DNA of 64,000 nt, taken from the IMG/VR virus record IMGVR_UViG_3300028920_000694, positions 40,201-104,200 of that record. One strand, 5' to 3'. Both the position numbers and the translations under genes were made by a program. Positions within the stretch are counted from its first letter, which is position 1, and each line of letters starts with the position of its first letter. The notes beneath the pieces were generated by a model. The model did no database searches. It was not told the DNA's origin and saw only the letters and a program-made list of their open reading frames with translations. This DNA is from a virus. Below are positions 1 to 64,000 of the stretch, piece after piece.

Positions 1-1
1 T

Positions 2-670
2 ATAATATATCCACTGATTGTGGATAGTATTGATTATGATACATCAATTCTTGGAGAATATGTAAATGTATCTGGAATTGAACCACCACCAGTCTTTACT
101 ATGGGAAAGTATAATGCACAGGACTATCTATTCCAGACTATGTATCCTAAACCATTCAAAATAGAGAGGATGCTTGACTTTGGAGCAGGATATGGAAGAC
201 AGATTAATCTATGGAGTCAACATCATAGAGATGACCTAACATATGTAGGAATGGATTCAGTGCCACAATCATACTGTCTTCAGAATCTATACTATAGATA
301 TGCAGATATGCCTATGTATGAATATATGGAGAAGAAGAGATTGAAGATAAAGAAGAAAGGTATCTATCATATACCTACATGGAGAACTGATTTACTTCCA
401 AGTAAGTATTTTGATATGGTGAGTGCAGTTCAAGTTATGCAAGAGATAAATGAAGAGCTAGTGAAACACATGTTAGATGAATTTAAGAGAGTTCTGAAGG
501 TAGGTGGAGAATTGTATATAAGAGACCATGGAATGGCATTTAAATATTCAGCACATAAATTAGATATAGAAGAAATACTTTGGGATATGGACTTCACACT
601 AGAGTATGAACCAGACTATGTAGATTATGAAGAGATACATGGTATACCTAGAATCTGGAGGAAGAATTAG
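2..670 (+). CDS. Class I SAM-dependent methyltransferase, probably a sugar O-methyltransferase (5'-truncated by the window edge)
   Basis: Motif I LDFGAGYGR, followed by DSVPQSYCLQNLYY and a post-II region VLKVGGELYI. The frame is open from position 2, so the GTG at 20 is not necessarily the start. First gene of a sugar cluster. Confidence 0.75.
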   Translation: MIYPLIVDSIDYDTSILGEYVNVSGIEPPPVFTMGKYNAQDYLFQTMYPKPFKIERMLDFGAGYGRQINLWSQHHRDDLTYVGMDSVPQSYCLQNLYYRYADMPMYEYMEKKRLKIKKKGIYHIPTWRTDLLPSKYFDMVSAVQVMQEINEELVKHMLDEFKRVLKVGGELYIRDHGMAFKYSAHKLDIEEILWDMDFTLEYEPDYVDYEEIHGIPRIWRKN

Positions 671-1539
671 TGAAACATATACTAGTAACTGGTGGATTAG
701 GATTCATAGGAAAGCATCTAGTGAAAAGACTAGAGAAAGAAGGACATAATATTCATATCATAGACATCAAGGGTGGTTCTAATCTATTAGATATAGATGA
801 GATAACCAATAAACATTATGATATCATCTATCATCTTGCAGCTAATGCAGATGTCAGAGGTGGAATAGATAACACAACGATAGATTTGGAGAATAATATC
901 AGAGCTACACATAGACTTCTAGAATATATGAGGATGCATAATTGTAAGAATCTAGTATTTACATCATCAGCTACAATCTATGGAGAAAGAGATGATTTCC
1001 CAATACCAGAAGATGCACCTGACTTGAGACCTATCTCACTCTATGGAGCAAGTAAACTATCTGCAGAACATCTGATAGAGGCATATTCACATATGTTTGG
1101 AATCAATGCAAATATCTTCAGATTTGGGAACATTGTTGGTGAAGGAAACACTCATGGAGTAATTAATGACTTTGTGAGGAAACTACAGAAGAATCCAAAG
1201 AAACTAGAGATTCTAGGAAATGGAAATCAGATTAAGCAGTATCTTCATGTGAATGATTGTATTAATGCATTGATGAATATATCTATAGAAGAAGGAGTTA
1301 ATATATATAATCTAGCACATGATGATACCATGCCAGTAAGTAGACTAGCATCTATAGTTATAGATGAGATGGAATTAGATGCAGAAATAGAATATACTGG
1401 TGGAGATAGAGGATGGATAGGAGATGTTCCAGTTACTATCATAGATAATTCTAAGATGAAGGAATGTGGTTGGAAACCAACTGTAAGTGTAGAAGATGGA
1501 ATAAGAAGAACTGTGAGGTGGCTAATTGATAATCAGTAG
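670..1539 (+). CDS. NAD-dependent nucleotide-sugar epimerase/dehydratase (extended SDR)
   Basis: GGLGFIG Rossmann motif, TSSATIYG, catalytic YGASK, FRFGNIVG. Confidence 0.95.
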   Translation: MKHILVTGGLGFIGKHLVKRLEKEGHNIHIIDIKGGSNLLDIDEITNKHYDIIYHLAANADVRGGIDNTTIDLENNIRATHRLLEYMRMHNCKNLVFTSSATIYGERDDFPIPEDAPDLRPISLYGASKLSAEHLIEAYSHMFGINANIFRFGNIVGEGNTHGVINDFVRKLQKNPKKLEILGNGNQIKQYLHVNDCINALMNISIEEGVNIYNLAHDDTMPVSRLASIVIDEMELDAEIEYTGGDRGWIGDVPVTIIDNSKMKECGWKPTVSVEDGIRRTVRWLIDNQ

Positions 1540-2485
1540 AACTCCATATAGAATATCATTTGCAGGTGGTCTATCTGACCTAGAAGCATATTATAAGTAT
1601 CAGGATGGACATGTAGTATCTACTACTATAGATAAATATCTCTACCTATTCGTGACTAAGAATCTAATAGGCAAGTATAGAGCAGTTTATAGAAATGTAG
1701 AAGAAGTGGATGAGATAGATGACATTAAGCATCCATTAGTAAGAGAATGTCTTAAGATGGCTAAGATAGATGAACCAGTAGAGATAATGTGTCTATCTGA
1801 TGCACCTGGAGGAACAGGTTTAGGTTCTTCATCTGCATTCACTGTAGGACTTCTTAATGCTTTATATAGATATAATGGAATCCAATGTAACAAAGCCAAA
1901 CTAGCAGAGGATGCATGTAAGATAGAAATAGATATACTAGGTGAGCCTATAGGAAAGCAGGATCAATATAACTGTGCTTTTGGTGGACTGAATCATTATG
2001 TATTTACTAAGAAGAGAATCAGAATCCATCCTATACTAGCAGATATAGAGACAATTAATAGATTACAAGACAATCTAATGTTATTCTATACAAACATTCA
2101 GAGAAAAGCATCTGATATTCTAAATAATCAGAAGAAGAATATGCATGATATAGTTCCAATAGTCAAAGATATGACTTGGATGGCTAGCTGTATATCTAGT
2201 GACTTACATCATAATACACTAGATAACATAGGTGCATATATAGGTGAAGAGTGGAATCTAAAGAAGAAGACTGGAAATGTATCTAATGAGATGATAGATG
2301 AGATAATAGATAGAACATATGATGCAGGAGCTACAGGAGCAAAGTTATGTGGAGCAGGTTCAGGTGGATTTCTGATGGTATATTGTGAACCAGCATATCA
2401 AGATGCAGTTAGAAAAAGACTATCTGATCTGACAGAGTTTCCATTTAGATTTGATGAACATGGGAGTAGGATAATACATGCCTGA
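1526..2485 (+). CDS. hddA: GHMP kinase, D-glycero-alpha-D-manno-heptose-7-phosphate kinase (HddA-like)
   Basis: N-terminus IISRTPYRISFAGG, GHMP motif PGGTGLGSSSA, IGKQDQY and GAKLCGAGSGGF, all typical of the HddA subfamily. Confidence 0.85.
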   Translation: MIISRTPYRISFAGGLSDLEAYYKYQDGHVVSTTIDKYLYLFVTKNLIGKYRAVYRNVEEVDEIDDIKHPLVRECLKMAKIDEPVEIMCLSDAPGGTGLGSSSAFTVGLLNALYRYNGIQCNKAKLAEDACKIEIDILGEPIGKQDQYNCAFGGLNHYVFTKKRIRIHPILADIETINRLQDNLMLFYTNIQRKASDILNNQKKNMHDIVPIVKDMTWMASCISSDLHHNTLDNIGAYIGEEWNLKKKTGNVSNEMIDEIIDRTYDAGATGAKLCGAGSGGFLMVYCEPAYQDAVRKRLSDLTEFPFRFDEHGSRIIHA

Positions 2486-3530
2486 AGTATCTATAATCAT
2501 ACCAACAAATAGAAGAAATAAAGTCATGATACCTAAGATAAGGAATATCCAGAGTGCACTTCTAAGGAACCATTTCAGTAGAACATTCACTAATGAATTC
2601 ATAGATTTGATTACCCAGAGAACATTTGATGTCAATCATTATCTAGAACTTACACTCAGCTCTCTATCATATCAAACATTCAAAGACTTTGAAGTTATTA
2701 TCTCACATAGATATCCAGAAGATGCTCTAGAGACAGTTAAGATGGAATGGGGATTTCCTATCAAGCTAGTAAAAGAGAAACCATCTATATGGCATGATTT
2801 AGGTGAGAAGTATCCTACACTCTGTAACAACATCAACACTGGAGTCATTCATTCTTCTGGAGAACTTCTCTGGAGACTAGATGACTTGACATTCTTTAAT
2901 AATAGAGCTTTAGAAGAATTGTGGAGTAACTGGAAGAATGGATACTATTCCACCAGTAGAGGATTCAGATGTATTGACTTTGAAGAGAAATGTCTTGGTA
3001 TGAAGGAGAGGTCAGTAAGAGTAGGACCTAATAAATATAACTGTTACTATAATGGATGGCTAGGTCAACTGAAGCCCCTGACTATGGAAGGTAATGAAAT
3101 TCCTAGCTGGATGATGTGGGGATTCTCTAGTACAATGTCTATAGATGATTTCCTTGAGGTTAATGGACAAGATGAGATATATGATGGAAGCATATCAGGT
3201 ACAGATATAGAAATCGCAATGAGGATAGCAAAGATAAATAAACAGAGGAGACTAGCTACACAGAACTTTGTATATGAGATAAATGATGTTCCATACAAGT
3301 ATATGGCCAGAGATGATGTTGCAATGAGAAGACTCTGGCAAGTGAATAATCTGACTGCTAATGATTGGAAGCCTACAGAAAAGCAGATGAAACTATATGA
3401 AAGGTGGCATAAAAAGAAACTAGGTGAATTAGATGAGTATTGGAATCAGTTCATGAATGTGCCTTATCTGGACATGAAAAAAGAGTATAAAGACAAGAAA
3501 TTGGGGAAAATAGTCTATGAAAGTGAATAA
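2478..3530 (+). CDS. Glycosyltransferase, GT-A fold (GT2-like)
   Basis: N-terminal VSIIIPT, LSSLSYQTFKDFEVII, SSGELLWRLDDL (DxD-like) and GQDEIYDG..GTDIEIAMR (GxxDED-like). Confidence 0.8.
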   Translation: MPEVSIIIPTNRRNKVMIPKIRNIQSALLRNHFSRTFTNEFIDLITQRTFDVNHYLELTLSSLSYQTFKDFEVIISHRYPEDALETVKMEWGFPIKLVKEKPSIWHDLGEKYPTLCNNINTGVIHSSGELLWRLDDLTFFNNRALEELWSNWKNGYYSTSRGFRCIDFEEKCLGMKERSVRVGPNKYNCYYNGWLGQLKPLTMEGNEIPSWMMWGFSSTMSIDDFLEVNGQDEIYDGSISGTDIEIAMRIAKINKQRRLATQNFVYEINDVPYKYMARDDVAMRRLWQVNNLTANDWKPTEKQMKLYERWHKKKLGELDEYWNQFMNVPYLDMKKEYKDKKLGKIVYESE

Positions 3531-3711
3531 TGTAGAATGTAGTCGAGGATATGCCTCAGAAATCGATTTAAAGGGGTCATACAGCCACGTAGAAGCAAAA
3601 ACTATTTTTACTAATGGTATTATACCTGTGGCATATCCAAATGCGTTAGCGTGGCTCTTTGGTGCCTTTAAATGGAAATTAGGGTTTTTTGATGAAAATG
3701 AACATAAATAA
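3517..3711 (+). CDS. Possible short ORF read through repeat copy A; may be non-coding
   Basis: The ATG overlaps the end of the GT gene and the ORF end overlaps the gmhA start, but nearly all of it is the 130-bp repeat and it has no recognisable motif. Confidence 0.2.
   Translation: MKVNNVECSRGYASEIDLKGSYSHVEAKTIFTNGIIPVAYPNALAWLFGAFKWKLGFFDENEHK
3541..3675 (-). repeat. Dispersed ~130-bp quasi-palindromic element, copy A
   Basis: The reverse complement reads CCATTTAAAGG..CAAAGAGC...ATACCATTAG...TGCTTCTACGTGGCT...CATATCCTCGACT and is colinear with copies B and C. Internal inverted arms are TTTAAAGG..AGCCACG and CGTGGCT..CCTTTAAA. Confidence 0.8.
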
Positions 3712-4216
3712 GTATTTAGATGAATTTAAGAGTGTGTTTGAAGATATAAAGAAGCAGTATAACAAGTTAGATGAGATAGTAGATATTATAAAGCAATCAG
3801 AGAAGATATACATAGCAGGTAATGGAGCATCTGCATTGATATCATCACATCTAGCCCTGCATCTGAGACAGTTAGGATATGATGCAATATCTCTAACAGA
3901 TAATGTAGGACTAGTGACTGCAGAAGCTAATGATGATGAATATAAAAATATATTTATGAACCAACTATATTCTACATCAGATAGAGGAGACATTCTAATC
4001 ATCTTCTCTGGTTCTGGTAATTCAGAGAATGTAGTGACTGGTGCAAAGTATATGATAGATATAGGAGAGAAGGTAATTGCATTTGTAGGAACAGATGGTG
4101 GAGAATTAAGTATGATGGAAGATGTAGAGTGTTTTCATGTGAATGGGGATATGCAGCACGCTGAAGATGCATTCTCAATTATATGTCACTTGCTTTTGAG
4201 GTGTTTAGATGAGTAA
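3689..4216 (+). CDS. gmhA: Phosphoheptose (sedoheptulose-7-phosphate) isomerase, SIS domain
   Basis: IYIAGNGASA, TAEAND, GDILIIFSGSGNSENV and GTDGG, as in GmhA. The C-terminal QE.H motif is diverged (QHAEDAF). Confidence 0.85.
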   Translation: MMKMNINKYLDEFKSVFEDIKKQYNKLDEIVDIIKQSEKIYIAGNGASALISSHLALHLRQLGYDAISLTDNVGLVTAEANDDEYKNIFMNQLYSTSDRGDILIIFSGSGNSENVVTGAKYMIDIGEKVIAFVGTDGGELSMMEDVECFHVNGDMQHAEDAFSIICHLLLRCLDE

Positions 4217-4427
4217 ACTTGAATTTAAATGTCCATTTTGTGATGCAGATATGGAAATTATAAGCCAGAATATTAGTATACCATTGAATTATTTATTTGG
4301 TACAAAAAACAAATTAACAGAAGAGTGGATTTGTATGAATGAAGAATGTCAATGTAGACTTGAGATAAATGCAGAATCTGTATCAATGATACCAATAGAA
4401 AGACAATGGAGACCAACAAATGAGTAA
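4209..4427 (+). CDS. Small zinc-ribbon protein
   Basis: CPFC ... CMNEEC; overlaps both neighbouring genes. Confidence 0.6.
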   Translation: MSKLEFKCPFCDADMEIISQNISIPLNYLFGTKNKLTEEWICMNEECQCRLEINAESVSMIPIERQWRPTNE

Positions 4428-5244
4428 ACCAAGAATTGGCATTTGTGGATTCGGAGTTGTGGGTAGAGCTATCCATGCAGGATTCTATACTAAAGCAAAG
4501 TTCAGGATATATGATATTAATCCAGATGTATCAGTTAATGACCTAGAAGATGTATGCATAGATAGTGAATTCATATTCATATGTGTTCCTACTCCTATGA
4601 AAGAGAATGGAGAGGCAGACACTTCTATAGTAGAAGAGACTGTTCAGAGATGTTTAGATTACATCAACCACACAGATACTATTCTAATAATCAAATCAAC
4701 TATTCCACCAGAGACTACAAAGATGCTTCAGGAGAGGCATCCAGATATACATATAGTCTTCTCACCAGAGTTCTTAACTGCTAGGTGTGCTAGACTAGAC
4801 TTCATTAATAATGCTAGAATCATTCTGGGTGGAGATATAGGAGATACAAAAAGAGTAGAGAGTCTCTTCAGATTGAGATTTCCACATACACCAATCATTC
4901 ACACAGATCCAACAACTGCAGAGATTGTAAAGTATGCAGCTAACTGTTTCTTTACCACAAAACTATCTTACTTCAATGAGATTTATCAGGTATGCCAGAA
5001 ATTAGGAGTTGATTATGAAGATGTGAAGAAGATGGTTCTACTTGATGGTAGGATAGGTAATTCACATGTTGATGTACCTGGATTTGATGGCCATCTAGGA
5101 TGGGGACAAGCATGTTTCACCAAAGACCATAATGCATTAATAAAAAAAGAAGAAGAACTAGGAATCGAACCTAGTGTTCTAAAAGGAGTATGGAAGAAGA
5201 ACGAAGAAGTTAGAGGAAAAAGATATTGGAAAAAAGGACTTTAA
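4420..5244 (+). CDS. UDP-glucose/GDP-mannose dehydrogenase family protein (short form without the C-terminal domain)
   Basis: GFGVVG, FICVPTP, IKSTIPP, SPEFL, EIVKYAANCF, GWGQACFTKD (GxGGxCxPKD-like). Confidence 0.9.
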   Translation: MSKPRIGICGFGVVGRAIHAGFYTKAKFRIYDINPDVSVNDLEDVCIDSEFIFICVPTPMKENGEADTSIVEETVQRCLDYINHTDTILIIKSTIPPETTKMLQERHPDIHIVFSPEFLTARCARLDFINNARIILGGDIGDTKRVESLFRLRFPHTPIIHTDPTTAEIVKYAANCFFTTKLSYFNEIYQVCQKLGVDYEDVKKMVLLDGRIGNSHVDVPGFDGHLGWGQACFTKDHNALIKKEEELGIEPSVLKGVWKKNEEVRGKRYWKKGL

Positions 5245-7869
5245 TTAAACTTCTGCTCTCCATGAAAATGATTGTGCATCTGGAGAAGAATGATACACAG
5301 TGATGTTTGTGGCATCCACTGTGAATGAATACATGATTGGATTTGCACCTGATGGAGATAGATTAACATAAGATGGTTTGCTTGGGCACCCATGTGCTAT
5401 AGTTCCTGCATCTGAAACATTAGCCCATCCTCTATATAAACTTTGTAAGGAACCTTTGATTGTGCCTCCTGATATTGTAGTTCCAGATATACCATCTGCA
5501 TCAATACCTGCAGCAGTCAACACACCTGTTGTTGTATCATCTGCATTATCTTTTAGATAGTCAGAAGCACCCACTAAGTTTGTATTGTTACCAGATACCC
5601 AATCTGCATAGATACCTGTCTGTGAGGAATACAGACCAGCTTTTATATTACCACCAGAGATTGCTTGAGTAGATATGCATTGTGAAGAGAAATTACCTTG
5701 GAAGTATGCATCTCCTTTAAATAGTGCATCACCTGCATCTATATAAAGTCCATAGTTATTTGTAGCACCACCAGCATAAGCATATATTCCTATGTTTGTG
5801 GTATTAGCCCCTACAGCAGTACCATTAAATCCATATAAAGTATCTAATCCAGCTTTATTAGCATGCATTTTAATAGCTTGGATAAAGTCGGTATTATCAT
5901 CTGGAGTTAATTGAACATTAACAAACCCCCTTAAAGTTCCTGTCATAGAATTATGCCCAAATGATGCTCCACCTGAATGTTGCATATGGAATGGTGAAGA
6001 AGGTGTGAACTTTGCCATATTCACCCCTAGAGAATTAGTTATTATAGAACCTCCAGAGATAGTTTGAGAAGAAAGAAAAGTCATATTATGAATACCCTTA
6101 CTATTCCAATCCTTATCAGCATTTATAGTCAAATCAGAAAGGTTAGATACTCCATCTCCCCCACCACCTATCATAGTGTTCCAACCACCACTATTAGCAC
6201 TACAAATATATAAATTTGATAATGAAGTAGTTCCAGATAACCAAAGAACTCCAGCTCTCTGTGATGGTTCATCTGTGCTTGGAATTATTTCAATCATAGA
6301 ACCAGAAAATCTGTGAGTAGTTATTCCTCTTTTTGTTAATATAAGTCTTCCACCACTATCATTATAGTTAAGTTGCATTGCTCCACTACCTTCCATATAT
6401 ACAAATGGACTATATGTTTGAGCAATATCATTGCAGTAGATATACATATCATCAGTGACTAGACTACCACCTTTTAAGACTGTATTATCATCTGATTTCT
6501 GTATACTAAATAATGCAGTATTTCCGCTTTCAATAGTAAGTGGTTGATTTCCATGAAGTCTTATATCTATATTTCCAGCATCAAATAAAGCAATAGCAGG
6601 CTGTGCATCTATATCATTAGCTAATAACTTAAGATTCTTTCCATCAATACCACCTTCAATAATAGATGTTGTTCCATCATATGTGAAATCAAATATCTGA
6701 GTAGAACCACTTTTCATAGTAATTCTACTAGGGCTATTAGTTATTAAATCAGTTAATCTTATTGATCCACCTGAAATTGATGCGGAAGAAATACCTGCAG
6801 CATTATAAATAGTCTTTGAATTCCAATCCTTATCAGCGTCTATAGTTAAATCTGATAAATTAGAAGCACCAGCACCAACACTTGGTCCATTATATACAGA
6901 ACAAGAAATAGTATGTGCTTGTAATTGACTGGATATAGATATCTTATTACCAGATAAAAGAATGTTACTACTAGCTTTTATACGGATATCACCTGGATGA
7001 GTAGCATGATCTTCACCATAAAAAGAAATATATGATTGTTCAGTTGTATAATGTCTAAATCTAGCTTCTTGGTCACTCCAACCAATCATCAAGTCTGTTC
7101 TTTTAGATGCAGTAGATGGATTAAAGATTAATATAGGTGTTCCATCTCTCCATATTCTAAATGTATGTGGAGTCTCACTACCTAGACCGACTCCAACAGT
7201 TGATGAATCGCCTACTGAGATATATTGAGTATTACTTGTATTACCCTTTATGACTATCTTCTCATCATGACTACCCCCGTATAGATTACTAGTTGTTCTA
7301 TTGTGAGTAAACTGAAATGTCTCACTACCAGTCTTATAGAAATACACATCATCATTTGTATCTAAGATTATATCTCCAGCACCATTTAATTTAATGTAAG
7401 GATATGTATCTGAACTATTCGCATTAATTATCATATCATCATTAGCATCATCACCACCGAATAAACGGCTATCATCTCCATCCACATCAAATTGGAATAT
7501 CTTAGATCCCTGTTCCTCTATATCAAAATCTCCACCAGTAGCCAAATCAATTCCAACATCACTGGCACCTTGTATTTGAATAAATGGGTAGGTATCTTTA
7601 TCATTAGCCTTAATAATCATAATAGAATCATTCTCATCTGTTCCATATATTGTAGTACCCTGCGCTTCAAGAGCAACCTTTAGCATTTGATCGCCATCAT
7701 CTTTCATTATTATCTTACTACTAGCATCTAGTATTATATCATCTGGGGCATCCATATTATACCAATCAGAACCAGTATTGTTATGTCTAATTTCTGGAAC
7801 CATTGTATTCCAATTACTATAAGTGATTGTATTGCCAGATTCCATTGAATCGTACCAATTAGTTGCCAT
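5245..7869 (-). CDS. Tail fibre / receptor-binding protein (874 aa, modular)
   Basis: Last gene of the tail-tip block. Rich in Gly/Ser/Asp, with repeated SSxxISGG and SNLSDLTI.ADKDWNSK modules. A ~110-aa module and the C-terminal domain are shared with 24439..27147. Confidence 0.7.
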   Translation of the reverse strand: MATNWYDSMESGNTITYSNWNTMVPEIRHNNTGSDWYNMDAPDDIILDASSKIIMKDDGDQMLKVALEAQGTTIYGTDENDSIMIIKANDKDTYPFIQIQGASDVGIDLATGGDFDIEEQGSKIFQFDVDGDDSRLFGGDDANDDMIINANSSDTYPYIKLNGAGDIILDTNDDVYFYKTGSETFQFTHNRTTSNLYGGSHDEKIVIKGNTSNTQYISVGDSSTVGVGLGSETPHTFRIWRDGTPILIFNPSTASKRTDLMIGWSDQEARFRHYTTEQSYISFYGEDHATHPGDIRIKASSNILLSGNKISISSQLQAHTISCSVYNGPSVGAGASNLSDLTIDADKDWNSKTIYNAAGISSASISGGSIRLTDLITNSPSRITMKSGSTQIFDFTYDGTTSIIEGGIDGKNLKLLANDIDAQPAIALFDAGNIDIRLHGNQPLTIESGNTALFSIQKSDDNTVLKGGSLVTDDMYIYCNDIAQTYSPFVYMEGSGAMQLNYNDSGGRLILTKRGITTHRFSGSMIEIIPSTDEPSQRAGVLWLSGTTSLSNLYICSANSGGWNTMIGGGGDGVSNLSDLTINADKDWNSKGIHNMTFLSSQTISGGSIITNSLGVNMAKFTPSSPFHMQHSGGASFGHNSMTGTLRGFVNVQLTPDDNTDFIQAIKMHANKAGLDTLYGFNGTAVGANTTNIGIYAYAGGATNNYGLYIDAGDALFKGDAYFQGNFSSQCISTQAISGGNIKAGLYSSQTGIYADWVSGNNTNLVGASDYLKDNADDTTTGVLTAAGIDADGISGTTISGGTIKGSLQSLYRGWANVSDAGTIAHGCPSKPSYVNLSPSGANPIMYSFTVDATNITVYHSSPDAQSFSWRAEV

Positions 7870-7885
7870 ATTTATCTACCTCTCA

Positions 7886-8410
7886 TTATAAATCTCCACT
7901 TCCACTAACCATTGCTTCTATCTTACATCCTATCCATCCTTCTGCTGAATTTGGAATTGGATGAAGAACTACATTCTTCACAAAAGCAATCGTTTCTTTT
8001 CTCATGTTCCTTAATGTGCTTGCTCCCATATCATTAGATGATGGTGTAGGCAAGAATTTGATAGTGTTCTCTGCACTCCAAGTAGTATCATACATATGTC
8101 TTCTTCCAAGTATTTTAAACAGTTCACCAACTGCACCTGGAATGATATTATCCATTAGAGTATCCACATCTGATTTTTTCATCCATGTTTCTATTATAAC
8201 AGAGTAATCTTGAACATCCCATCTGCTACACTTGACATCTAAGAAATCACTTGTTCCCATATTTCCATAATAGATAGCCAAGTCATTATCATATTTGAAT
8301 GGTGGAGAAGGTGGAAGAGCACATGGACCAAAGCAGAATCCAAAATCATCATCAAAATAATAAGGAAATGTTCTATGAGATGCCTGAGGATGAGTATCAA
8401 ATGCAGACAT
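7886..8410 (-). CDS. Tail-tip protein, paralog 3 of a tandem triplet (possibly distal-tail-like)
   Basis: Shares CSRWD..Y..I.ETW...GAVGELFKILGR...YDTTWS.ENTI with the two preceding genes. Confidence 0.55.
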   Translation of the reverse strand: MSAFDTHPQASHRTFPYYFDDDFGFCFGPCALPPSPPFKYDNDLAIYYGNMGTSDFLDVKCSRWDVQDYSVIIETWMKKSDVDTLMDNIIPGAVGELFKILGRRHMYDTTWSAENTIKFLPTPSSNDMGASTLRNMRKETIAFVKNVVLHPIPNSAEGWIGCKIEAMVSGSGDL

Positions 8411-9255: not shown

Positions 9256-9256
9256 A

Positions 9257-17854: not shown

Positions 17855-17889
17855 TTATTTCAGTCTCCAAAATATAACATATAACATCT

Positions 17890-29467: not shown

Positions 29468-29468
29468 A

Positions 29469-47999: not shown

Positions 48000-48130
48000 A
48001 GATACCTATCAATCATTAGAGAATTTGTTTGTAGATGTTGCACAGTTGATTCTTGATAATTACGGTGTTTCAATTGATGACTTACATGACATTCTAAAGG
48101 ACAGATTAGAATTAATTGACTAAACAGCCT

Positions 48131-54834: not shown

Positions 54835-54835
54835 A

Positions 54836-55087
54836 ATGTTCTGTAAAGAATGTAAAACATTGATGTATCCAAAAGAAGATATGTTTATATGTCCAAAATG
54901 TGGATTGAAAAAGAAAAAGAATAAGAGAATTCAGATTATTTCTCATCAACTTGAAACTGAAGAGATAGAAGTATATAATGACAACCCAATTAAGAAAAAG
55001 ATGGAAGAGATTGATGAGGAGATAGATGGATATTTCTTTAAGAAACATGAAAACAAAGATAAAAAAGAGGAGATTGATGAAGAGTAA
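54836..55087 (+). CDS. Truncated TFS/RpoM-like protein (N-terminal zinc ribbon only)
   Basis: MFCKECKTLMYPKEDMFICPKCG matches the archaeal TFS N-ribbon (FCPKCG.LM.P....VC.KCG). The second ribbon and the catalytic DE hairpin are absent, replaced by an acidic tail. Confidence 0.7.
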   Translation: MFCKECKTLMYPKEDMFICPKCGLKKKKNKRIQIISHQLETEEIEVYNDNPIKKKMEEIDEEIDGYFFKKHENKDKKEEIDEE

Positions 55088-56180: not shown

Positions 56181-56906
56181 ATGGCTAAGTTTTTAAATCC
56201 AGAAGATTTGAATAAGATATTGAAAGAGAAGAGGAAACCACAATACTTCTTTCAGAGGACAAGAAAGACAGATAGAGAAGAGTTTGCAGACTTCTATGAG
56301 AATGATGACTCAGTGATTATTACATTCACTACAAACATAGCAGAGATAGAACCAAATAAGGAAGACCTAATAGGTAGAATATGGGAACCTAATCTAAAGG
56401 ACAAGGATGGGAATCCTAAGATAGACAAGTTCACAGGCAAGGTGATGGAGGCATGGTCTAAGTTTGAGGCTAAGTGTGTCATCAATGATACAGAGATAGT
56501 ATATGGATTCGGAAGTGATTGGGCTTCTCTACTTAGGGGAGTTGCTAATGAGATGCTCAAAAACGACATCAAAGACTTGACTGGAACCAGATGGAAGATT
56601 AGATGTATAGATATCAATAAGTATAACTGGGATATAGAATATATAGGCAAGGGAGATAAACCTGCACCTAAGCCTACAAAAGAAGACAAAAAAGATGATT
56701 CAACATATGATAAGGCAGTTGAGGCAATAAAGAGGATGGCACAGAGGAACAAGGCAAAGATACTTGCAGGATTAGATGAGGATGAATTTGCACCTGCTAT
56801 TGGATTGATGATTGAAGTGGATCCAAAGGAGATTCAAAAGATGATTCCTCAGTTAATTGAAAATGATGTAATTTCTGTTGAAGAAGATAAGATATATATA
56901 CAATAG
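56181..56906 (+). CDS. Putative single-stranded DNA-binding protein (beta-rich N-terminal domain plus C-terminal winged helix)
   Basis: Beta-rich N-terminal domain, Lys/Pro linker, and C-terminal DPKEIQKMIPQLIENDVISVEEDKIY wHTH, the layout of RPA32; lies in the replication block. Confidence 0.45.
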   Translation: MAKFLNPEDLNKILKEKRKPQYFFQRTRKTDREEFADFYENDDSVIITFTTNIAEIEPNKEDLIGRIWEPNLKDKDGNPKIDKFTGKVMEAWSKFEAKCVINDTEIVYGFGSDWASLLRGVANEMLKNDIKDLTGTRWKIRCIDINKYNWDIEYIGKGDKPAPKPTKEDKKDDSTYDKAVEAIKRMAQRNKAKILAGLDEDEFAPAIGLMIEVDPKEIQKMIPQLIENDVISVEEDKIYIQ

Positions 56907-56919
56907 GAGAAAAAAGAAA

Positions 56920-57549
56920 ATGGAAAAGAAAGATGGCATAGTTGCAGTTCTGCTAATCATTGCATTGATGATTGGAGGAGTTGCTCTATGGATAGGAAAC
57001 ATAAATGATGAAGAGTTTAGAACAAACCTGAATGAAATAGAACTAACTCCAGGACCAGAAGGAATTCCTGGAATACAAGGACCTCAAGGTGAGAAAGGAG
57101 ATAAAGGAGACACTGGAGATACTGGACCTCAAGGACCACAAGGAGAACAAGGTGAAAGAGGAAAGAGAGGACCACAAGGACCAGCAGGTGAAGATTTAGA
57201 ACCTAATGAAGCACCTGTCATATATGTAAATGATTCTGCTAGTTATGTTGAAGGATGTTGGTGGAATGATGACTTTGTATTCTGCATAGATATATCCACC
57301 ACAGATTTAGAGAATGACTACAGAAAAATAACTGTGTATTATAGATATGACACAGAAGATGAGTGGAACATCCATGAATCATATCCATTCTTAGATGATG
57401 AAGCATACCTAAGCATTTGCAAAGAGAAGAGTGGCAACTGCTATTGGGGTGAGAAGACAATCCACTGGTTGATTGAAGTTATGGATGGAGAGAATCTGGT
57501 ATATCTAAACTGGGACACAACCTTGCTTAAGGAACATTGTCCTGATTAG
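56920..57549 (+). CDS. Membrane-anchored collagen-like protein
   Basis: N-terminal TM helix, about 16 consecutive Gly-X-Y triplets, and an Ig-like C-terminal domain. Confidence 0.8.
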   Translation: MEKKDGIVAVLLIIALMIGGVALWIGNINDEEFRTNLNEIELTPGPEGIPGIQGPQGEKGDKGDTGDTGPQGPQGEQGERGKRGPQGPAGEDLEPNEAPVIYVNDSASYVEGCWWNDDFVFCIDISTTDLENDYRKITVYYRYDTEDEWNIHESYPFLDDEAYLSICKEKSGNCYWGEKTIHWLIEVMDGENLVYLNWDTTLLKEHCPD

Positions 57550-60991: not shown

Positions 60992-62053
60992 ATGTGGATA
61001 GAGGAACTCTTCTATGACTCGATGGGAACAGCCAGAACCAGAATCCTTAGCGATTCAGGCAAGGAATACATCACCAACATCAGAAAGGATTGGATATCTT
61101 GGTGTTCCTGTCCTAGTTGGATATACAACAAACTCCCCTGCAAGCACATAAAGTTCCTGTATTCAAAATTGGAGAAAGAAAAAATGGTTGATAAATCAGA
61201 TAAATTAGTTAGGATTCCAACTGAGAGTAAGATAATTGATGATATGATTGGAGGAGGATTCCCCCAGAAGTTAATCACTGCTATCTTTGCTCCACCTGCA
61301 ACAGGAAAGAGTTGGTTAGCCTATCAGGCAGGTGTGAGTAACATTAAGACTACAGGTCAGGAGACTCTACTCATAGATACAGAAGGAATCACTAGAGAGG
61401 ATTTAGATAACATCCTCACAAAACTATCTAAGAGATATGATGCAGATGCTAAGACAGTGAAGAAGAAGTTCAAGATGATAAAGACATATGATGATCCTAA
61501 TGCTATGTCGATTCAGAAGCTACTCATGATGTTCGGATTCTTTGTGAAGCTAGAGTTAAGTGAGAAAGGTAAATATAAAGTAACATTCCAGCCATATGAC
61601 CAGACACTTAAGGTGAATGAGTTAGAGAACATCTCTATGATTATCATAGACTCTCTAACTAAACCTATCAAGGACTCTATTGGAAGTGAGACAGCAAACC
61701 TACCTGCGAGAGCTCAGATAGTAGAGAGAATGTTCGGGAAGCTCTATCAGATAGCAGAGTTATATAACATTTCAGTGATTGTGAATCATCATGCATCTGT
61801 TCCACCACCAGTGGGGTATGTTAAAGCACCTTATGCATATGGGGGTAATCCGATCTACTATAACTCTAAGTATATTCTAGAACTCTTTGACTCTACTAAA
61901 GCAGAGAGAGATATCAAGTGTGTGGAGAACAAGAAGAAGACATGGGACCTTGAAGCCAGAAGAATCAGATTGGTTAGAAGACCAGATGAACAACCCACTG
62001 GAGAGAAGGTTCCTATCAGATTAAAGAAAGATATTGGATTCGTGGATGAATGA
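60992..62053 (+). CDS. SWIM zinc finger fused to a RecA/RadB-like ATPase
   Basis: CSCPSWIYNKLPCKH (SWIM CxC-xn-CxH), then IPTESKIIDDMIGGG, Walker A APPATGKS, LIDTEG, Walker B IIIDS, PYAYGGNPIYYNSK. Confidence 0.85.
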   Translation: MWIEELFYDSMGTARTRILSDSGKEYITNIRKDWISWCSCPSWIYNKLPCKHIKFLYSKLEKEKMVDKSDKLVRIPTESKIIDDMIGGGFPQKLITAIFAPPATGKSWLAYQAGVSNIKTTGQETLLIDTEGITREDLDNILTKLSKRYDADAKTVKKKFKMIKTYDDPNAMSIQKLLMMFGFFVKLELSEKGKYKVTFQPYDQTLKVNELENISMIIIDSLTKPIKDSIGSETANLPARAQIVERMFGKLYQIAELYNISVIVNHHASVPPPVGYVKAPYAYGGNPIYYNSKYILELFDSTKAERDIKCVENKKKTWDLEARRIRLVRRPDEQPTGEKVPIRLKKDIGFVDE

Positions 62054-62506: not shown

Positions 62507-62788
62507 ATGGCAGTTAGGCAGTTCTATATCAAAAGAATATGCAATGAAATCATGAAGAAGTTTCCTGAAATGGCAACAGAAGACTTTGAATTGAACAAGC
62601 AATTAGTTAATGAAATTACAGATGTTCAATCTAAGAAGATAAGAAATAGAATAGCAGGTATGTTGGTCTGCTACAAAAAGAATGAGAATAAGGTGTTTAT
62701 CCCACCTAAGACTGGAAAGCCTCGAAAGAAGAAGGGCTGGAAAAAGAAGGAGAAGAATCGTTTAAGAAGAAGGAGAAGAAATAAATGA
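62507..62788 (+). CDS. rps17e: Ribosomal protein eS17 (S17e) homolog with a basic C-terminal extension
   Basis: VRQFYIKRIC.EI...F....T.DFE.NK..V.EITDV.SKKIRNRIAG is colinear with archaeal S17e (IR...VKR.A.E.......FT.DF..NK..V......SK..RN.IAGY). Confidence 0.88.
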   Translation: MAVRQFYIKRICNEIMKKFPEMATEDFELNKQLVNEITDVQSKKIRNRIAGMLVCYKKNENKVFIPPKTGKPRKKKGWKKKEKNRLRRRRRNK

Positions 62789-63012: not shown

Positions 63013-63138
63013 GGATTGATTCTTAGCCATTCTGAGAGGTTTAGATGTTAGGAGGTATAATACCATTGGCAGAAAAAGATATTGCGTCAGCGTTGCTTAT
63101 ATGCAATCCTCGAGCAAAATTAGAGGGTATCCTCGACT
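63004..63138 (+). repeat. Dispersed ~130-bp quasi-palindromic element, copy C
   Basis: Exact blocks shared with copy D at identical spacing; inverted arms GCTGAGGATTG / CAATCCTCGAGC. Confidence 0.9.
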
Positions 63139-63151
63139 GGAAGTGTGAAAT

Positions 63152-63361
63152 ATGAAGATTGGAGATAAAATGAAGGTTCTAGGCTTTGATTGTGGAGCCA
63201 GAGCATACCATAAATTCAATGTGATGGGCATCAGAATCGGAAGCATTCTAGTTCTAGAGGCAGTTCAGCCTCATGGTCCATATACATTTAGAATGAAAGG
63301 AATGAAGTTAACAATAGGTAGAGGTTTGCTTGAGAAATTAAGGTATGAGGTGATTGAATGA
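63152..63361 (+). CDS. feoA: FeoA-like SH3-fold protein
   Basis: MKIGD..KV......A.....VMGIRIGS.L.L....P.GP.......KLTIGRG, the FeoA consensus. Confidence 0.8.
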   Translation: MKIGDKMKVLGFDCGARAYHKFNVMGIRIGSILVLEAVQPHGPYTFRMKGMKLTIGRGLLEKLRYEVIE

Positions 63362-64000
63362 TTATCATAGACGATAGAAAGGAAACAGATACATATGAAG
63401 GTCTCAAGAAGAGAGGCATTCTAGATGCAGAGGTTCAAAGAATAGAGGTTGCAGATGTGCTTCTGGATGATGGTGTTGCAGTAGAGAGAAAGGGACATGA
63501 CTTGTTTGGATCTCTAACTACTGGAAGAATCTGGGAACAGTTGAATGGACTTAATGAATATGAGCATCCAATCCTCTGCATAGTTAATGAGAACATCTGG
63601 AGAGATATGTATTACATCAGAAGCAATTGGATACATAAGTCCTATCAAGGATTCCTAACTACTCTGGCACTGAGATATCCAAAGCTAAAGGTGTTTCAGT
63701 TCGGGTGCATGGAAGACTATCTTGATTTCATTGTTGCACTGGATAAGAAAATACATAAGGAAGGTAAATCTACAAGACCAACACCGATTCATCGAAAGAC
63801 TAAGAAGATTCAGGTGAGAATGGAAGACTGTCTAGCTATGGCAGATGGGATTTCTATAGGCAAGGCAAAGATTCCACTTAAGAAATACAACACTGTATAT
63901 GATGTAGCTAGCCAACCACTTAAGGAGTTAGAGAAGATGGATGGCTATGGTAAGAAATTAGCAAAGAATCTATATGATTTATTGCATGGTCAATATAAGG
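63358..64000 (+). CDS. ERCC4/XPF (Hef-like) structure-specific nuclease with an HhH2 domain (3'-truncated)
   Basis: IIIDDRKE, VAD..L...VAVERK, GRIWEQL, then GISIGKAK and DGYGKKLAK HhH motifs; frame open to the window end. Confidence 0.9.
   Translation, partial: MIIIDDRKETDTYEGLKKRGILDAEVQRIEVADVLLDDGVAVERKGHDLFGSLTTGRIWEQLNGLNEYEHPILCIVNENIWRDMYYIRSNWIHKSYQGFLTTLALRYPKLKVFQFGCMEDYLDFIVALDKKIHKEGKSTRPTPIHRKTKKIQVRMEDCLAMADGISIGKAKIPLKKYNTVYDVASQPLKELEKMDGYGKKLAKNLYDLLHGQYK

What the first reader, a model, noticed from the sequence alone, without database searches (positions are those of the whole stretch)
1..64000. Apparently novel archaeal siphovirus carrying a set of host information-processing genes
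Seen: a complete HK97-type head-and-tail module together with archaeal-type eS17, Alba, TFS-like, RadB-like and ERCC4 genes, GGTGA SD motifs and BRE-TATA promoters. Inference: the host may be Thermoplasmatota (MBG-D/E2-like), because the WWSMNVSDG-type Ig module, the agglutinin-C-like protease and the collagen-anchored proteins resemble surface proteins I associate with that group. I cannot place the virus in a named family.
Basis: partly seen in the sequence, partly recalled or inferred. Interest (0 to 1): 0.6.

Follow-up and report, generated by a model that had tools for sequence, protein, structure and literature searches.

The report
Large archaeal tailed virus, undescribed family
The window is the middle of a nearly complete, roughly 115-kb genome of an uncultured tailed virus of archaea from marine sediment; it belongs to a widespread virus family that I could not match to any described one, the three large genomes compared all carry their own ribosomal protein eS17 and chromatin protein Alba, and its host group is still unknown.

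Summary
Pfam, PHROGs and PDB searches confirm TerL, portal, S78 prohead protease and an HK97-fold capsid protein. They also confirm eS17, Alba, a SWIM-RadA paralog, a short XPF/ERCC4 nuclease and a collagen-repeat protein. The "TFS-like" gene is only an insignificant zinc ribbon and is absent from relatives. BRE-TATA promoters could not be verified.

The window is bases 40201-104200 of a 115,333-bp IMG/VR record from marine sediment. It is not a singleton. TerL relatives (44-57% identity) lie on 11 IMG/VR contigs, including genomes of 138 and 155 kb. Those two share 30-41% of their genes with this virus in conserved order, including eS17, Alba, RadA, XPF, PolB and a 20-40 kb glycan-synthesis cluster.

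The nearest described viruses are haloarchaeal Haloferuviridae, at 25% capsid identity; the portal has no match. This supports an undescribed family-level lineage of archaeal Caudoviricetes, probably siphoviruses.

The Thermoplasmatota host inference has no support. The host phylum is unresolved, and the tools gave no access to Thermoplasmatota, Asgard or Thermoproteota genomes. I found no eS17 in 50,697 deposited phage and archaeal-virus records or in the papers searched. The scan also noted a viral eS17 on another genome (e1-5827566).

The parts
2..5244 (+). Last six genes of a ~39-kb viral glycan-biosynthesis cluster: SAM methyltransferase, NAD epimerase/dehydratase, GHMP kinase, GT2-like protein, SIS/GmhA-like isomerase and UDP-glucose dehydrogenase-like protein.
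   Evidence: Pfam. The cluster continues upstream to genome position ~6.4 kb. Its genes are conserved in G074 and G075.
5245..12727 (-). Distal tail, fibre and adhesin genes of 874, 174, 281, 338 and 817 aa. The 338-aa protein (9257-10273) has a Laminin_G_3 lectin fold.
   Evidence: Laminin_G_3 60 bits. N-terminal parts are conserved in the much longer G074/G075 orthologs.
12730..15762 (-). Giant tail protein with a tape-measure-type domain, 1010 aa here and 2020-2082 aa in relatives.
   Evidence: PhageMin_Tail 99.6 bits; orthologs.
15962..24457 (-). Baseplate and tail-tip proteins of 146, 483, 653, 128, 697, 379 and 301 aa. The 697-aa protein carries the Ig-like module with WWSMNVSDG.
   Evidence: Position and partial conservation. 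No Pfam or PHROG function was found. Motif located.
24439..27147 (-). 902-aa protein at the canonical tape-measure position, directly after the chaperone pair.
   Evidence: Gene order. Ortholog G074_169 is 1014 aa. No family match.
27300..27957 (-). Tail-assembly chaperone pair. The downstream frame (27300-27527) is conserved but has no start codon of its own, as expected for a frameshift extension.
   Evidence: Ortholog alignment begins 26 codons before the first canonical start. Position is between the tube candidate and the TMP candidate.
27996..28949 (-). Candidate major tail (tube) protein of 152 aa and a neighbouring 162-aa tail protein.
   Evidence: Position, and 46-52% identity to G074/G075 orthologs. 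The AlphaFold model failed at pLDDT 38, so the fold is not shown.
29066..31958 (-). Small head-tail connector and completion genes. Two of them start at ATT/ATC and at ATA.
   Evidence: Conserved in G074/G075. Start codons examined.
32095..33204 (-). HK97-fold major capsid protein.
   Evidence: Pfam. 52-66% identical in five related IMG/VR records. 179 protein clusters match at E <= 1e-10.
33705..34928 (-). Prohead serine protease (S78) with a C-terminal scaffold-like extension.
   Evidence: Peptidase_S78 54.5 bits.
37885..38412 (-). Second, weak S78-like head protein.
   Evidence: 19.5 bits, below the cut-off of 21. Its G075 ortholog (38% identical to it) is 31% identical to a protein of the G765 provirus.
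38419..39843 (-). Portal protein.
   Evidence: phrog_9232, E 1e-20. 70% identical on contig L018.
39863..40204 (-). Alba-family DNA/RNA-binding protein, encoded between TerL and portal.
   Evidence: Same position in G074 and G075, 45% identity.
40170..41714 (-). Terminase large subunit.
   Evidence: Pfam. 11 IMG/VR relatives at 44-57% identity.
42384..42995 (-). Candidate small terminase or late-operon DNA-binding protein (inference from position only).
   Evidence: Lies upstream of TerL. Conserved in G074 at 28% identity. No family match.
46128..48123 (+). Run of small, acidic or zinc-finger early genes, including a weak Ocr-like ORF at 47328-47744.
   Evidence: ORF list. The ocr match is 18.8 bits, below the cut-off of 25.
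51905..52345 (+). Pyrimidine-dimer DNA glycosylase (T4 endonuclease V type).
   Evidence: Pyr_excise 73.3 bits. Present in G074 at 54% identity.
52632..53222 (+). Calcineurin-like metallophosphoesterase that starts at ATA behind GGGGTGA.
   Evidence: Pfam. Start codon examined.
53896..54834 (+). ParB-like nuclease or partition protein.
   Evidence: phrog_12047, E 9.5e-22.
54818..55087 (+). Zinc-ribbon ORF.
56878..57549 (+). Membrane-anchored collagen-repeat protein.
   Evidence: Collagen 36.4 bits. Sequence inspected.
60992..62053 (+). SWIM zinc finger fused to a RadA/Rad51-type recombinase core.
   Evidence: 41-48% identical in G074 and G075.
62507..62788 (+). Ribosomal protein eS17 with a Lys/Arg-rich C-terminal tail.
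   Evidence: Present and syntenic in G074 and G075. Viral-type homologs at 56-71% identity.
63152..63361 (+). Small FeoA-like (SH3-like) protein.
   Evidence: FeoA 26.5 bits. Conserved in G074 and G075.
63358..64000 (+). Short-form XPF/ERCC4 nuclease. The gene ends at window position 64008.
   Evidence: 41-45% identical in G074 and G075.

Best explanation
The window is the central 64 kb of a near-complete genome, about 115-120 kb, of an uncultivated tailed dsDNA virus of archaea (class Caudoviricetes). It is probably non-integrating and has a non-contractile tail. It comes from marine sediment. It belongs to a diverse family-level clade with genomes of about 115 to over 155 kb that is common in public metagenomes and that I could not match to any described family.

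SHOWN.
- One long minus-strand late operon encodes TerL, Alba, portal, protease, HK97 capsid, connectors, chaperones and tail genes.
- Plus-strand early and middle operons encode a replication and repair set: family-B DNA polymerase, primase-like protein, RNase H-like exonuclease, class II-type RNR with an intein, Dam, SWIM-RadA, short XPF, DenV and ParB-like nuclease. They also encode ribosomal protein eS17.
- One third of the genome is a glycan-biosynthesis cluster.
- eS17, Alba, RadA, XPF, PolB and the glycan cluster are conserved in order in two relatives of 138 and 155 kb.

INFERRED.
- The virus replicates largely with its own machinery and uses recombination-dependent replication and repair (RadA + XPF).
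- The viral eS17 enters host 30S subunits to keep or bias translation during infection.
- Alba, made with the packaging proteins, coats or condenses the viral DNA.
- The glycan cluster decorates virions or remodels the host surface.
- The lectin and Ig-bearing fibres bind host surface glycans.

The host is an archaeon that does not use the salt-in strategy. Its phylum is unknown.
For: Viral hallmark genes:
- Identified.

Record and source:
- The record identity, 115,333 bp, comes.
- A second assembly of 114,570 bp carries a 99% identical eS17.
- Two marine-sediment studies hold the DNA.

The clade:
- There are 11 IMG/VR TerL relatives at 44-57% identity.
- MCP is 52-66% identical in five records.
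- The six MCPs are monophyletic with support 90/97.
- 179 MCP clusters match at E <= 1e-10, and the 120 listed are all at least 47% identical, on contigs up to 155 kb.

Gene sharing:
- The three large genomes share 30-41% of their ORFs at a mean 41-46% amino-acid identity, with synteny.
- This lies within the 20-50% range quoted for one archaeal Caudoviricetes family. Different families share under 10% (criterion as cited in bioRxiv 10.1101/2025.02.15.638363, read).

Completeness:
- The genes at the two ends of this contig are neighbours in G075, about 400 bp apart, and in G074, about 3.6 kb apart.

Archaeal signature:
- eS17 is conserved and syntenic in all three genomes.
- Alba is conserved in all three.
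- The best solved relatives of PolB include the Pyrococcus abyssi family-B polymerase.
- The best solved relatives of the recombinase are RadA.
- XPF is the short archaeal type.
- The nearest described MCPs are haloarchaeal siphoviruses.
- The nearest cell-linked head module is a ~25-kb provirus in a complete McrA-positive archaeal genome: MCP 33%, portal 28%.

Lifestyle and host type:
- No integrase and no sheath were found in the three genomes.
- Proteome median pI is 6.0-6.7, unlike salt-in halophiles.
Against: - There is no direct host link: no CRISPR spacer match, no provirus of the clade and no tRNA.
- The only organism label found for a clade member is an NCBI MAG called 'Actinobacteria bacterium' (P0180, 64% MCP identity).
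- The closest described TerL sequences are bacterial phages.
- The siphovirus call rests on gene order and on absence of a sheath match in a very divergent lineage. The tail-tube model failed, and the tail proteins have no PHROG match.
- CheckV rates the record only 68% complete.
- Described archaeal virus groups that are missing from the collection searched could not be compared by sequence. Examples are the Asgard viruses of up to 117 kb from deep-sea sediment (bioRxiv 10.1101/2021.07.29.454249), magroviruses and Bathyarchaeia viruses.
Confidence: 0.8

Rival explanations
1. One reading: the host is a member of Thermoplasmatota (MBG-D/E2-like).
For: - The marine-sediment source fits that group.
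- In the Atlas structure search with the Ig-module half of the 697-aa tail protein, the two first rows are archaeal surface-protein clusters whose commonest phylum is Thermoplasmatota.
- The best solved Alba relative is entry 4z9e, at 43.6 bits against 37 for the next. From memory, which I could not check here, this is the Thermoplasma volcanium protein.
Against: - The Atlas matches have TM of only 0.37-0.40, on a model with pLDDT 0.58. Bacterial and viral clusters score the same or better in the same list.
- The agglutinin-like hit is below its cut-off.
- A 6-bit difference among a dozen solved Albas says nothing about the host.
- The nearest Atlas clusters for eS17 are labelled Nanobdellota, Uroviricota and Bathyarchaeota, not Thermoplasmatota (leads only).
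- No Thermoplasmatota genome could be searched.
Confidence: 0.15
2. It is a member of an archaeal virus group that is already described but is absent from the deposited-phage collection searched here. Examples are the Lokiarchaeia/Helarchaeales viruses of up to 117 kb from Guaymas sediments, or a family in a recent archaeal virus catalogue.
For:
- A 2026 catalogue lists 3708 archaeal viral genomes of up to 188 kb (PMC13465236).
- The clade is abundant in JGI and ENA data, so others have probably met it.
Against: - None of the papers read mentions eS17, Alba or a glycan cluster of this size in such viruses.
- No deposited record matches portal, eS17 or RadA.
- I could not compare sequences with those studies.
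Confidence: 0.15
3. It is a bacteriophage, with a bacterial host such as Actinomycetota.
For: - A relative's 68.6-kb contig sits in NCBI MAGs labelled Actinobacteria/Actinomycetota bacterium.
- The nearest described TerL sequences are Bacillus and other bacterial phages at 24-27% identity.
- DenV, Dam and ParB-like genes are common in phages.
Against: - eS17 and Alba have no place in a bacterial cell, yet both are conserved and syntenic in three genomes that are only 41-46% identical.
- PolB, RadA and XPF are archaeal types.
- MCP and portal are nearest to viruses and a provirus of archaea.
- Viral contigs are often mis-binned into MAGs.
Confidence: 0.04
4. The record is a chimera, or a provirus with flanking host DNA. 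On this view the sugar genes at window 2-5244 and upstream are a host cell-surface island.
For: - 39 kb of sugar-metabolism genes is unusual for a virus.
- CheckV gives 68% completeness.
Against: - The same cluster lies between the RNR and the tail fibres in G074 and G075, with many orthologs at 30-59% identity.
- GC content is even across the window, 0.28-0.38 with no step.
- Viral genes flank the cluster on both sides.
- There is no integrase.
Confidence: 0.03

Closest known systems
Haloferuviridae (Kirjokansivirales): Halorubrum tailed virus 4 and Haloferax tailed virus 1
   Same: They are archaeal siphoviruses with an HK97-fold capsid. They are the best MCP matches among described viruses, at 24-25% identity over about 70% of the protein.
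   Different: - Their genomes are 35-38 kb, against about 115 kb here.
- Only MCP and TerL are detectably shared.
- They sit on a long separate branch in the MCP tree.
- Their hosts are salt-in halophiles, whereas this proteome is not acidic.
Hafunaviridae haloarchaeal myoviruses that encode ribosomal protein eL21 (Liu et al. 2021, PMC8651126)
   Same: They are archaeal tailed viruses that carry a ribosomal protein gene. That paper reports them as the first such cases.
   Different: - The protein is large-subunit eL21, not small-subunit eS17.
- It is present in four isolates of one family.
- The viruses are myoviruses.
- Here eS17 carries a basic tail and is kept at the same position in three genomes that share only 30-41% of their genes.
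Phage-encoded ribosomal proteins bS21 and bL12 (Mizuno et al. 2019, PMC6375957)
   Same: They are small, peripheral ribosomal proteins carried as single viral genes. Experiments showed that they enter host ribosomes (abstract read).
   Different: They are bacterial proteins in bacteriophages. S17 does not occur in that paper's text. Incorporation of the viral eS17 is untested.
Head-tailed viruses of haloarchaea and Nanohaloarchaeota from Danakil lakes (bioRxiv 10.1101/2025.02.15.638363)
   Same: Their genome maps list Alba, ERCC4-type nuclease, RadA or RecA/RadB-like protein, PolB and RNR. A set of host-type information-processing genes is therefore a known theme in archaeal tailed viruses.
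   Different: They come from a hypersaline habitat and have halophilic hosts. No eS17 is listed. I made no sequence comparison.
Asgard archaeal viruses from deep-sea sediment (Fenrir, Nidhogg, Ratatoskr, Skoll; bioRxiv 10.1101/2021.07.29.454249)
   Same: They come from marine sediment, have Caudovirales-like structural genes and genomes of up to 117.5 kb, and carry their own methylation and glycosylation genes.
   Different: That text mentions no ribosomal protein or Alba.
About 25-kb provirus in G765, a complete 2.47-Mb McrA-positive archaeal genome
   Same: It is the nearest head module found inside a cell genome: MCP 33%, portal 28% and small S78-like protein 31% identical.
   Different: - It is integrated and about five times smaller.
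- GC is 44%, against 34% here.
- Apart from the three head proteins, only one weak match outside the provirus (a RadA-like gene, 33% over 87 residues) was seen in the 80-kb region.
- It lies outside the clade in the MCP tree.

Membership tests
Caudoviricetes (tailed dsDNA viruses, realm Duplodnaviria) | HK97-fold major capsid protein | tested here: met
   Phage_capsid 35.6 bits and Phage_capsid_4 37.7 bits, both above their cut-offs.
Caudoviricetes (tailed dsDNA viruses, realm Duplodnaviria) | Terminase large subunit and portal protein | tested here: met
   Terminase_6C 38 bits. Portal matches phrog_9232 at E 1e-20.
Caudoviricetes (tailed dsDNA viruses, realm Duplodnaviria) | Capsid maturation protease | tested here: met
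   Peptidase_S78 54.5 bits.
Siphovirus morphotype | Long non-contractile tail: tube and tape measure present, no sheath | tested here: inconclusive
   - The gene order is tube candidate, chaperone pair with a frameshift-type extension, then a 902-aa protein.
- PhageMin_Tail scores 99.6 bits.
- No Phage_sheath_1 match in three genomes.
- The tube protein model failed at pLDDT 38, and the tail proteins have no PHROG match.
Virus of archaea | Direct host link (CRISPR spacer, provirus, isolate) | not testable with these tools
   - No spacer database was available.
- No clade member was found in 401 sampled genomes of one archaeal phylum or 301 of another.
Virus of archaea | Conserved genes that work only in an archaeal (or eukaryotic) cell | tested here: met
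   eS17 and Alba are present and syntenic in three genomes. PolB, RadA and XPF are archaeal types.
Haloferuviridae, or any family present in the deposited-phage collection | About 20-50% of proteins shared with members (criterion cited) | tested here: not met
   Of six proteins tried, only MCP (25%), TerL (at most 27%) and PolB (25%, one halovirus) have any match. Portal, eS17 and RadA have none.
Same family as IMG/VR records G074 and G075 | About 20-50% of proteins shared and monophyletic hallmark genes | tested here: met
   30-41% of ORFs are shared, with synteny. The MCP clade has support 90/97.
Ribosomal protein eS17 (PF00833) | Match to the family model above the curated cut-off, and to solved archaeal eS17 | tested here: met
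   39.9 bits against a cut-off of 22.8. E 1.8e-13 to archaeal S17e over residues 3-56.
Ribosomal protein eS17 (PF00833) | Incorporation into 30S subunits | not testable with these tools
   This needs an experiment.
Alba (PF01918) | Full-length similarity to Alba proteins | tested here: met
   Pfam gives 23.6 bits, just under the cut-off of 25. phmmer gives E 2.5e-10 to 11 solved Alba sequences over residues 20-106.
TFS / RpoM / RPB9 | Significant match to the N-terminal zinc ribbon, and presence of the C-terminal catalytic ribbon | tested here: not met
   17.7 bits against a cut-off of 25.2. Best PDB E-value is 0.12. There is only one ribbon. The gene is not conserved in relatives.
RadB | Short RadA paralog that groups with RadB and not with RadA | tested here: inconclusive
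   The Rad51/RadA core is clear. The best solved matches are RadA, at 40.8 bits; RadB 2cvf scores 27.5 bits. The N-terminus is a SWIM finger, which RadB lacks. No tree was built.
XPF/ERCC4 nuclease | ERCC4 nuclease domain, followed by the C-terminal region seen in the short archaeal XPF | tested here: met
   ERCC4 41 bits. It aligns over residues 23-214 with the 214-219-aa XPF chains 2bhn and 2bgw.
Thermoplasmatota-infecting virus | Specific similarity of virus genes to Thermoplasmatota genes, or a spacer or provirus link | not tested
The only indirect look gave sub-threshold matches.

The most novel reading that the evidence does not exclude
This is a core member of an undescribed family, possibly order-level, of large (115 to over 155 kb) siphoviruses of uncultured sediment archaea. 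Their conserved toolkit includes a virus-specific eS17 with a basic tail that enters host ribosomes, an Alba protein made with the packaging machinery that coats the viral genome, and a 20-40 kb glycan factory. That would make eS17 a new kind of virus-encoded ribosomal protein, the second kind reported for archaeal viruses after eL21, and a conserved lineage marker.
Probability: 0.35. Interest if true: 0.7.

Novelty: new member of a known kind. Interest (0 to 1): 0.5.

Why it matters
Few families of tailed viruses are known for archaea outside haloarchaea and methanogens, and sediment archaea are mostly uncultured.

A family with genomes of 115-155 kb, found in many metagenomes, would add a major branch to the archaeal virome. 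Its members devote a third of the genome to glycan synthesis. They also keep their own ribosomal protein eS17 and chromatin protein Alba.

The conserved eS17 gives a concrete, testable case of ribosome manipulation by an archaeal virus. The Alba gene inside the packaging operon suggests virus-directed chromatinisation of the packaged or injected genome.

None of this overturns current ideas. It extends known themes: viral ribosomal proteins, auxiliary replication genes and virion glycosylation.

Tried and rejected
1. Host phylum from eS17.
- Word-based search found only four viral-type homologs.
- The genome-collection scan returned ten loci, mostly Nanohaloarchaea and Woesearchaeota. That bias follows the peptide pattern EDFEENK used for the scan.
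- All 70 genomes of the Nanohaloarchaeota phylum give only 29-46% identity.
- The exhaustive representative search shows cellular-type eS17 at no more than about 56% identity and carries no taxonomy.
- The viral eS17 genes differ greatly from each other, with 38-51% identity over about 50 aligned residues, but are syntenic. This looks like an old acquisition that cannot name the present host.

2. Provirus or mis-binned relatives.
- TerL in 301 genomes of G004's phylum found only 26-29% matches.
- MCP in 401 genomes of G003's phylum found one distant provirus. I take that phylum to be Halobacteriota from its McrA pattern. This is an inference.
- Other archaeal phyla could not be reached.

3. 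RNR as a host marker. All 120 best hits are short viral-type RNRs without organism names.

4. I looked for isoleucine at the start position of N-terminally over-called eS17 representatives and found none that were convincing. I dropped the lead.

5. Tail-tube fold. The model had pLDDT 38 and was unusable.

6. De novo promoter motif search found no positioned motif.

7. Negative searches: Rfam, tRNA and CRISPR-like arrays.

8. A guess from the sequence that 57733-58662 is a DHH phosphoesterase had no Pfam, PHROG or PDB support. I dropped it.

9. IMG metagenome identifiers of related contigs are not in the paper library.

11. Use of the unpublished genome G004.
- It served only as the centre of the search.
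- I also looked at two of its eS17 loci.
- The negative result and one passing remark about those loci rest on it.
- No conclusion on the virus's identity depends on its sequence, and none of its sequence is reproduced.

Full report
WHERE THE WINDOW LIES

The window is bases 40201-104200 of a single 115,333-bp IMG/VR virus record, classed linear and 68% complete by CheckV. Two marine-sediment metagenome studies of 2019 hold the DNA almost word for word. A second assembly of 114,570 bp carries a 99% identical eS17.

GC is even at 0.28-0.38. Strand skew follows the operons: plus to 5.2 kb, minus from 5.2 to 45 kb, mixed from 46 to 52 kb, and plus from 52 kb on. There are no tRNAs, no Rfam matches and no CRISPR-like arrays.

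CHECKING THE OBSERVATION

The head-and-tail module is real:
- TerL, S78 protease and HK97 capsid pass Pfam cut-offs.
- The portal matches PHROG 9232.
- A 1010-aa tail protein carries a tape-measure domain.

Four of the five "information-processing" genes hold:
- eS17 scores 39.9 bits against a cut-off of 22.8. Its best solved relatives are archaeal S17e, E 1.8e-13.
- Alba is just under Pfam's cut-off, but it matches eleven solved Alba sequences over its whole length, E 2.5e-10.
- The recombinase is a SWIM finger fused to a Rad51/RadA core.
- The nuclease is a short XPF, alignable end to end with the 214-aa chains 2bhn/2bgw.

The fifth does not hold:
- The "TFS-like" ORF is a single zinc ribbon below every threshold.
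- It has no counterpart in the relatives.

Other points:
- The collagen-repeat protein and the WWSMNVSDG motif exist. The agglutinin-like hit is sub-threshold.
- Shine-Dalgarno pieces of GGAGGTGATC precede 28% of genes, against 6% background. This sequence suits bacterial and archaeal 16S rRNA alike.
- I could not verify BRE-TATA promoters. TATA-like octamers are enriched between genes, but they show no preferred distance from starts.

THE REST OF THE GENOME

Upstream of the window lie an RNR large subunit with an intein and then about 39 kb of tightly packed plus-strand sugar genes. Window 2-5244 is the tail of this cluster. These genes include:
- at least four NAD epimerases/dehydratases;
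- GT1, GT2 and GT4 transferases;
- five radical-SAM-type proteins, three of them confirmed as radical SAM/SPASM by Pfam;
- a carbamoyltransferase;
- a GHMP kinase, a SIS isomerase and a UDP-glucose dehydrogenase.

Downstream lie:
- an RNase H-like exonuclease, a weak primase-polymerase match, Dam and a GT1;
- a 776-aa family-B DNA polymerase, whose best solved relatives include the Pyrococcus abyssi family-B polymerase.

IT IS NOT A SINGLETON

TerL patterns found 11 IMG/VR contigs at 44-57% identity. They include records of 137,847 bp (G074) and 154,999 bp (G075), both rated 87% complete. Their capsid proteins are 52-66% identical to this one. Both large records carry eS17.

I fetched both and compared all ORFs.
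- This virus shares 73 of 188 ORFs with G074 and 78 of 188 with G075. Mean identity is 41-46%, and gene order is the same.
- The shared set includes TerL, Alba, portal, protease, MCP, connectors, tail genes, PolB, primase-like protein, SWIM-RadA, eS17, a FeoA-like protein, XPF, GT1, RNR and much of the glycan cluster.
- Alba lies between TerL and portal in all three. eS17 lies between RadA and XPF in all three.
- This level of sharing is what is quoted for members of one archaeal Caudoviricetes family: 20-50% within a family and under 10% between families (text read).

A search of 5.8 billion proteins found 179 MCP clusters at E <= 1e-10. The 120 listed are all at least 47% identical and sit on contigs of up to 155 kb. 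The lineage is therefore common and diverse.

THREE CONSEQUENCES

1. The sugar cluster is viral, not host DNA or a chimera. It sits between the RNR and the tail fibres in all three genomes.
2. The record is nearly whole. The genes at its two ends are neighbours in G075 (about 400 bp apart) and in G074 (about 3.6 kb apart). A second assembly has nearly the same length. The genome is therefore about 115-120 kb. CheckV's 68% probably reflects larger relatives.
3. eS17 was acquired once, long ago. The three viral copies are syntenic but show only 38-51% identity over about 50 aligned residues.

RELATION TO DESCRIBED VIRUSES

I searched 50,697 deposited phage and archaeal-virus genomes.
- MCP matches only ten records. 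The best are Haloferuviridae siphoviruses of haloarchaea, at 24-25%.
- TerL matches bacterial phages at no more than 27%.
- PolB matches one halovirus and one marine virus at about 25%.
- Portal, eS17 and SWIM-RadA match nothing.

In an MCP tree the six clade members group together with support 90/97. They stand apart from Haloferuviridae, from a short IMG/VR contig and from a methanogen provirus. The tree has only 11 rows and an arbitrary root. I left out the other haloviruses and two other Bacillus phages.

No sheath and no tyrosine integrase were found in the three genomes. Together with the order tube candidate, chaperone pair, 902-aa protein, this favours a non-integrating siphovirus. The tail proteins are so divergent that absence of a match is weak evidence, and the tube model failed.

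ARCHAEAL OR BACTERIAL HOST?

The archaeal reading rests on:
- conserved eS17 and Alba, which have no role in a bacterium;
- archaeal-type PolB, RadA and XPF;
- capsid and portal kinship with haloarchaeal viruses and with a ~25-kb provirus in a complete, McrA-positive 2.47-Mb archaeal genome, at MCP 33% and portal 28%.

Against it stands one label. A relative's capsid protein (64% identity, 68.6-kb contig) is filed by NCBI under MAGs named "Actinobacteria bacterium". I read that as mis-binning, but it is the only organism name attached to the clade.

WHICH ARCHAEA?

This is unresolved.
- The proteome is not acidic, with median pI 6.0-6.7. That argues against salt-in halophiles, even though the eS17 pattern scan returned mostly Nanohaloarchaea. 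That return is a bias of the pattern.
- Cellular eS17 is at most about 56% identical, and the hits carry no taxonomy.
- The ESM Atlas places the viral eS17 nearest to clusters labelled Nanobdellota, Uroviricota and Bathyarchaeota. These are leads only. They do show that viral-labelled eS17 records already exist.
The Ig module gives TM 0.37-0.40 to two Thermoplasmatota surface-protein clusters. Bacterial clusters score as well in the same list, and the model is poor.
- I had no route to Thermoplasmatota, Asgard or Thermoproteota genomes.

HOW IT MOST LIKELY WORKS

Shown: the gene sets and their order.

Inferred:
- Fibres with a concanavalin-type lectin domain and Ig-like modules bind host surface glycans.
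- Small acidic and zinc-finger early proteins at 46-48 kb act first. One is a weak Ocr-like ORF.
- The virus replicates with its own PolB, primase-like protein, exonuclease and RNR. It uses SWIM-RadA and XPF for recombination-dependent replication or repair, and DenV for UV-type lesions.
- eS17 is a peripheral small-subunit protein. It is supplied by the virus and enters host 30S subunits, as shown for phage bS21 and bL12 (PMC6375957). It either keeps ribosome supply going after host shut-off or favours viral messages. Its basic tail may add RNA contacts.
- Alba is co-transcribed with terminase and portal, and it coats viral DNA for packaging or protection.
- The glycan cluster decorates virion proteins or alters the host envelope.

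My confidence in the individual inferred roles is modest: about 0.4 for eS17 incorporation and about 0.3 for Alba as a packaging partner.

COMPARISON WITH WHAT IS KNOWN

- Ribosomal proteins in viruses are known. Examples are bS21 and bL12 in phages (PMC6375957) and eL21 in four haloarchaeal myoviruses, which were reported as the first in archaeal viruses (PMC8651126).
- Alba, ERCC4 nucleases, RadA-like proteins and PolB are listed in genome maps of other archaeal tailed viruses.
- Glycosyltransferase loci of about 5 kb are described in Asgard viruses (PMC13700489).
- What I did not find in print is eS17 in a virus, Alba inside the packaging operon, or a 20-40 kb glycan cluster in an archaeal virus. 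The library lacks most subscription papers, so this is not proof of novelty.
- The scan itself noted a viral eS17 with a basic tail on another genome (e1-5827566).

VERDICT

This is an ordinary kind of entity, an archaeal tailed virus, from a lineage that appears undescribed at family level. It has three unusual conserved features. The host guess does not.

Use of the unpublished genome G004:
- It was the centre of the search, and I looked at two of its eS17 loci.
- The negative result and one passing remark about those loci rest on it.
- No conclusion on the virus's identity depends on its sequence.

Noticed in passing
window 29066-29473(-), 30304-30591(-), 52632-53222(+); G075:36651-36947(+): Three genes have no ATG, GTG or TTG where their orthologs start. 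Instead they have ATT/ATC or ATA a few bases behind a strong GGTGA-type ribosome-binding site. The eS17 gene of relative G075 likewise has no canonical start before codon 66 and most likely starts at ATA behind GGAGG. Standard gene callers truncate these genes.
   Followed up: partly
window 39863-40204(-); G074:12118-12378; G075:148169-148441: The Alba gene lies between the terminase large subunit and the portal gene in all three large genomes. This places it in the late packaging operon, not among the replication genes.
   Followed up: partly
genome 6389-45444 (window 2-5244 is its end): About 39 kb, one third of the genome, is one plus-strand glycan-biosynthesis cluster. It has five radical-SAM-type genes (three confirmed as radical SAM/SPASM by Pfam), at least four epimerases, a carbamoyltransferase and heptose-pathway-like genes. 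Shorter versions are conserved in G074 (about 20 kb) and G075 (about 32 kb).
   Followed up: partly
window 12730-15762(-) and 24439-27147(-): There are two tape-measure-like giants. One lies at the usual position after the chaperones and has no family match. The other lies 9 kb downstream and carries the PhageMin_Tail domain. The second is twice as long (2020-2082 aa) in G074 and G075.
   Followed up: no
genome 2329-4533 (L004): The RNR large subunit is interrupted by an intein. Its intein-free relatives of about 500 aa (at least 50% identity, 120 clusters) all lie on contigs of up to 171 kb without organism names. This looks like a virus-specific short RNR lineage. G075 carries a different RNR, only 39% identical.
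   Followed up: partly
window 43300-44260 and 45124-46127: Two stretches of about 1 kb lack convincing ORFs. The second has the lowest GC of the window (0.28) and lies at the switch between the divergent late and early operons. It may hold the origin or the main promoters.
   Followed up: no
protein P0180 (NCBI MBE3094896.1, MBE3114595.1): A capsid protein 64% identical to this virus's, on a 68.6-kb contig, is filed under MAGs named Actinobacteria/Actinomycetota bacterium. This is probably a viral contig binned into a bacterial MAG.
   Followed up: partly
G765:C1:~1917000-1943000 (L060-L061): A provirus of about 25 kb lies in a complete McrA-positive archaeal genome. Its capsid, portal and small S78-like protein are the nearest cell-linked relatives of this clade, at 28-33% identity.
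   Followed up: partly
window 58686-59246(+): This 186-aa ORF has an NPPY motif typical of N6-adenine or N4-cytosine DNA methyltransferases but no Pfam match at E 0.01. Together with the Dam gene downstream of the window, this would give the virus two DNA methyltransferases.
   Followed up: no
L054 (G004:C48, unpublished genome): In a Woesearchaeota MAG, Alba and eS17 genes lie side by side on a cellular-looking contig, and a second eS17 copy lies on another contig. This rests on an unpublished genome, and no sequence is reproduced here.
   Followed up: no
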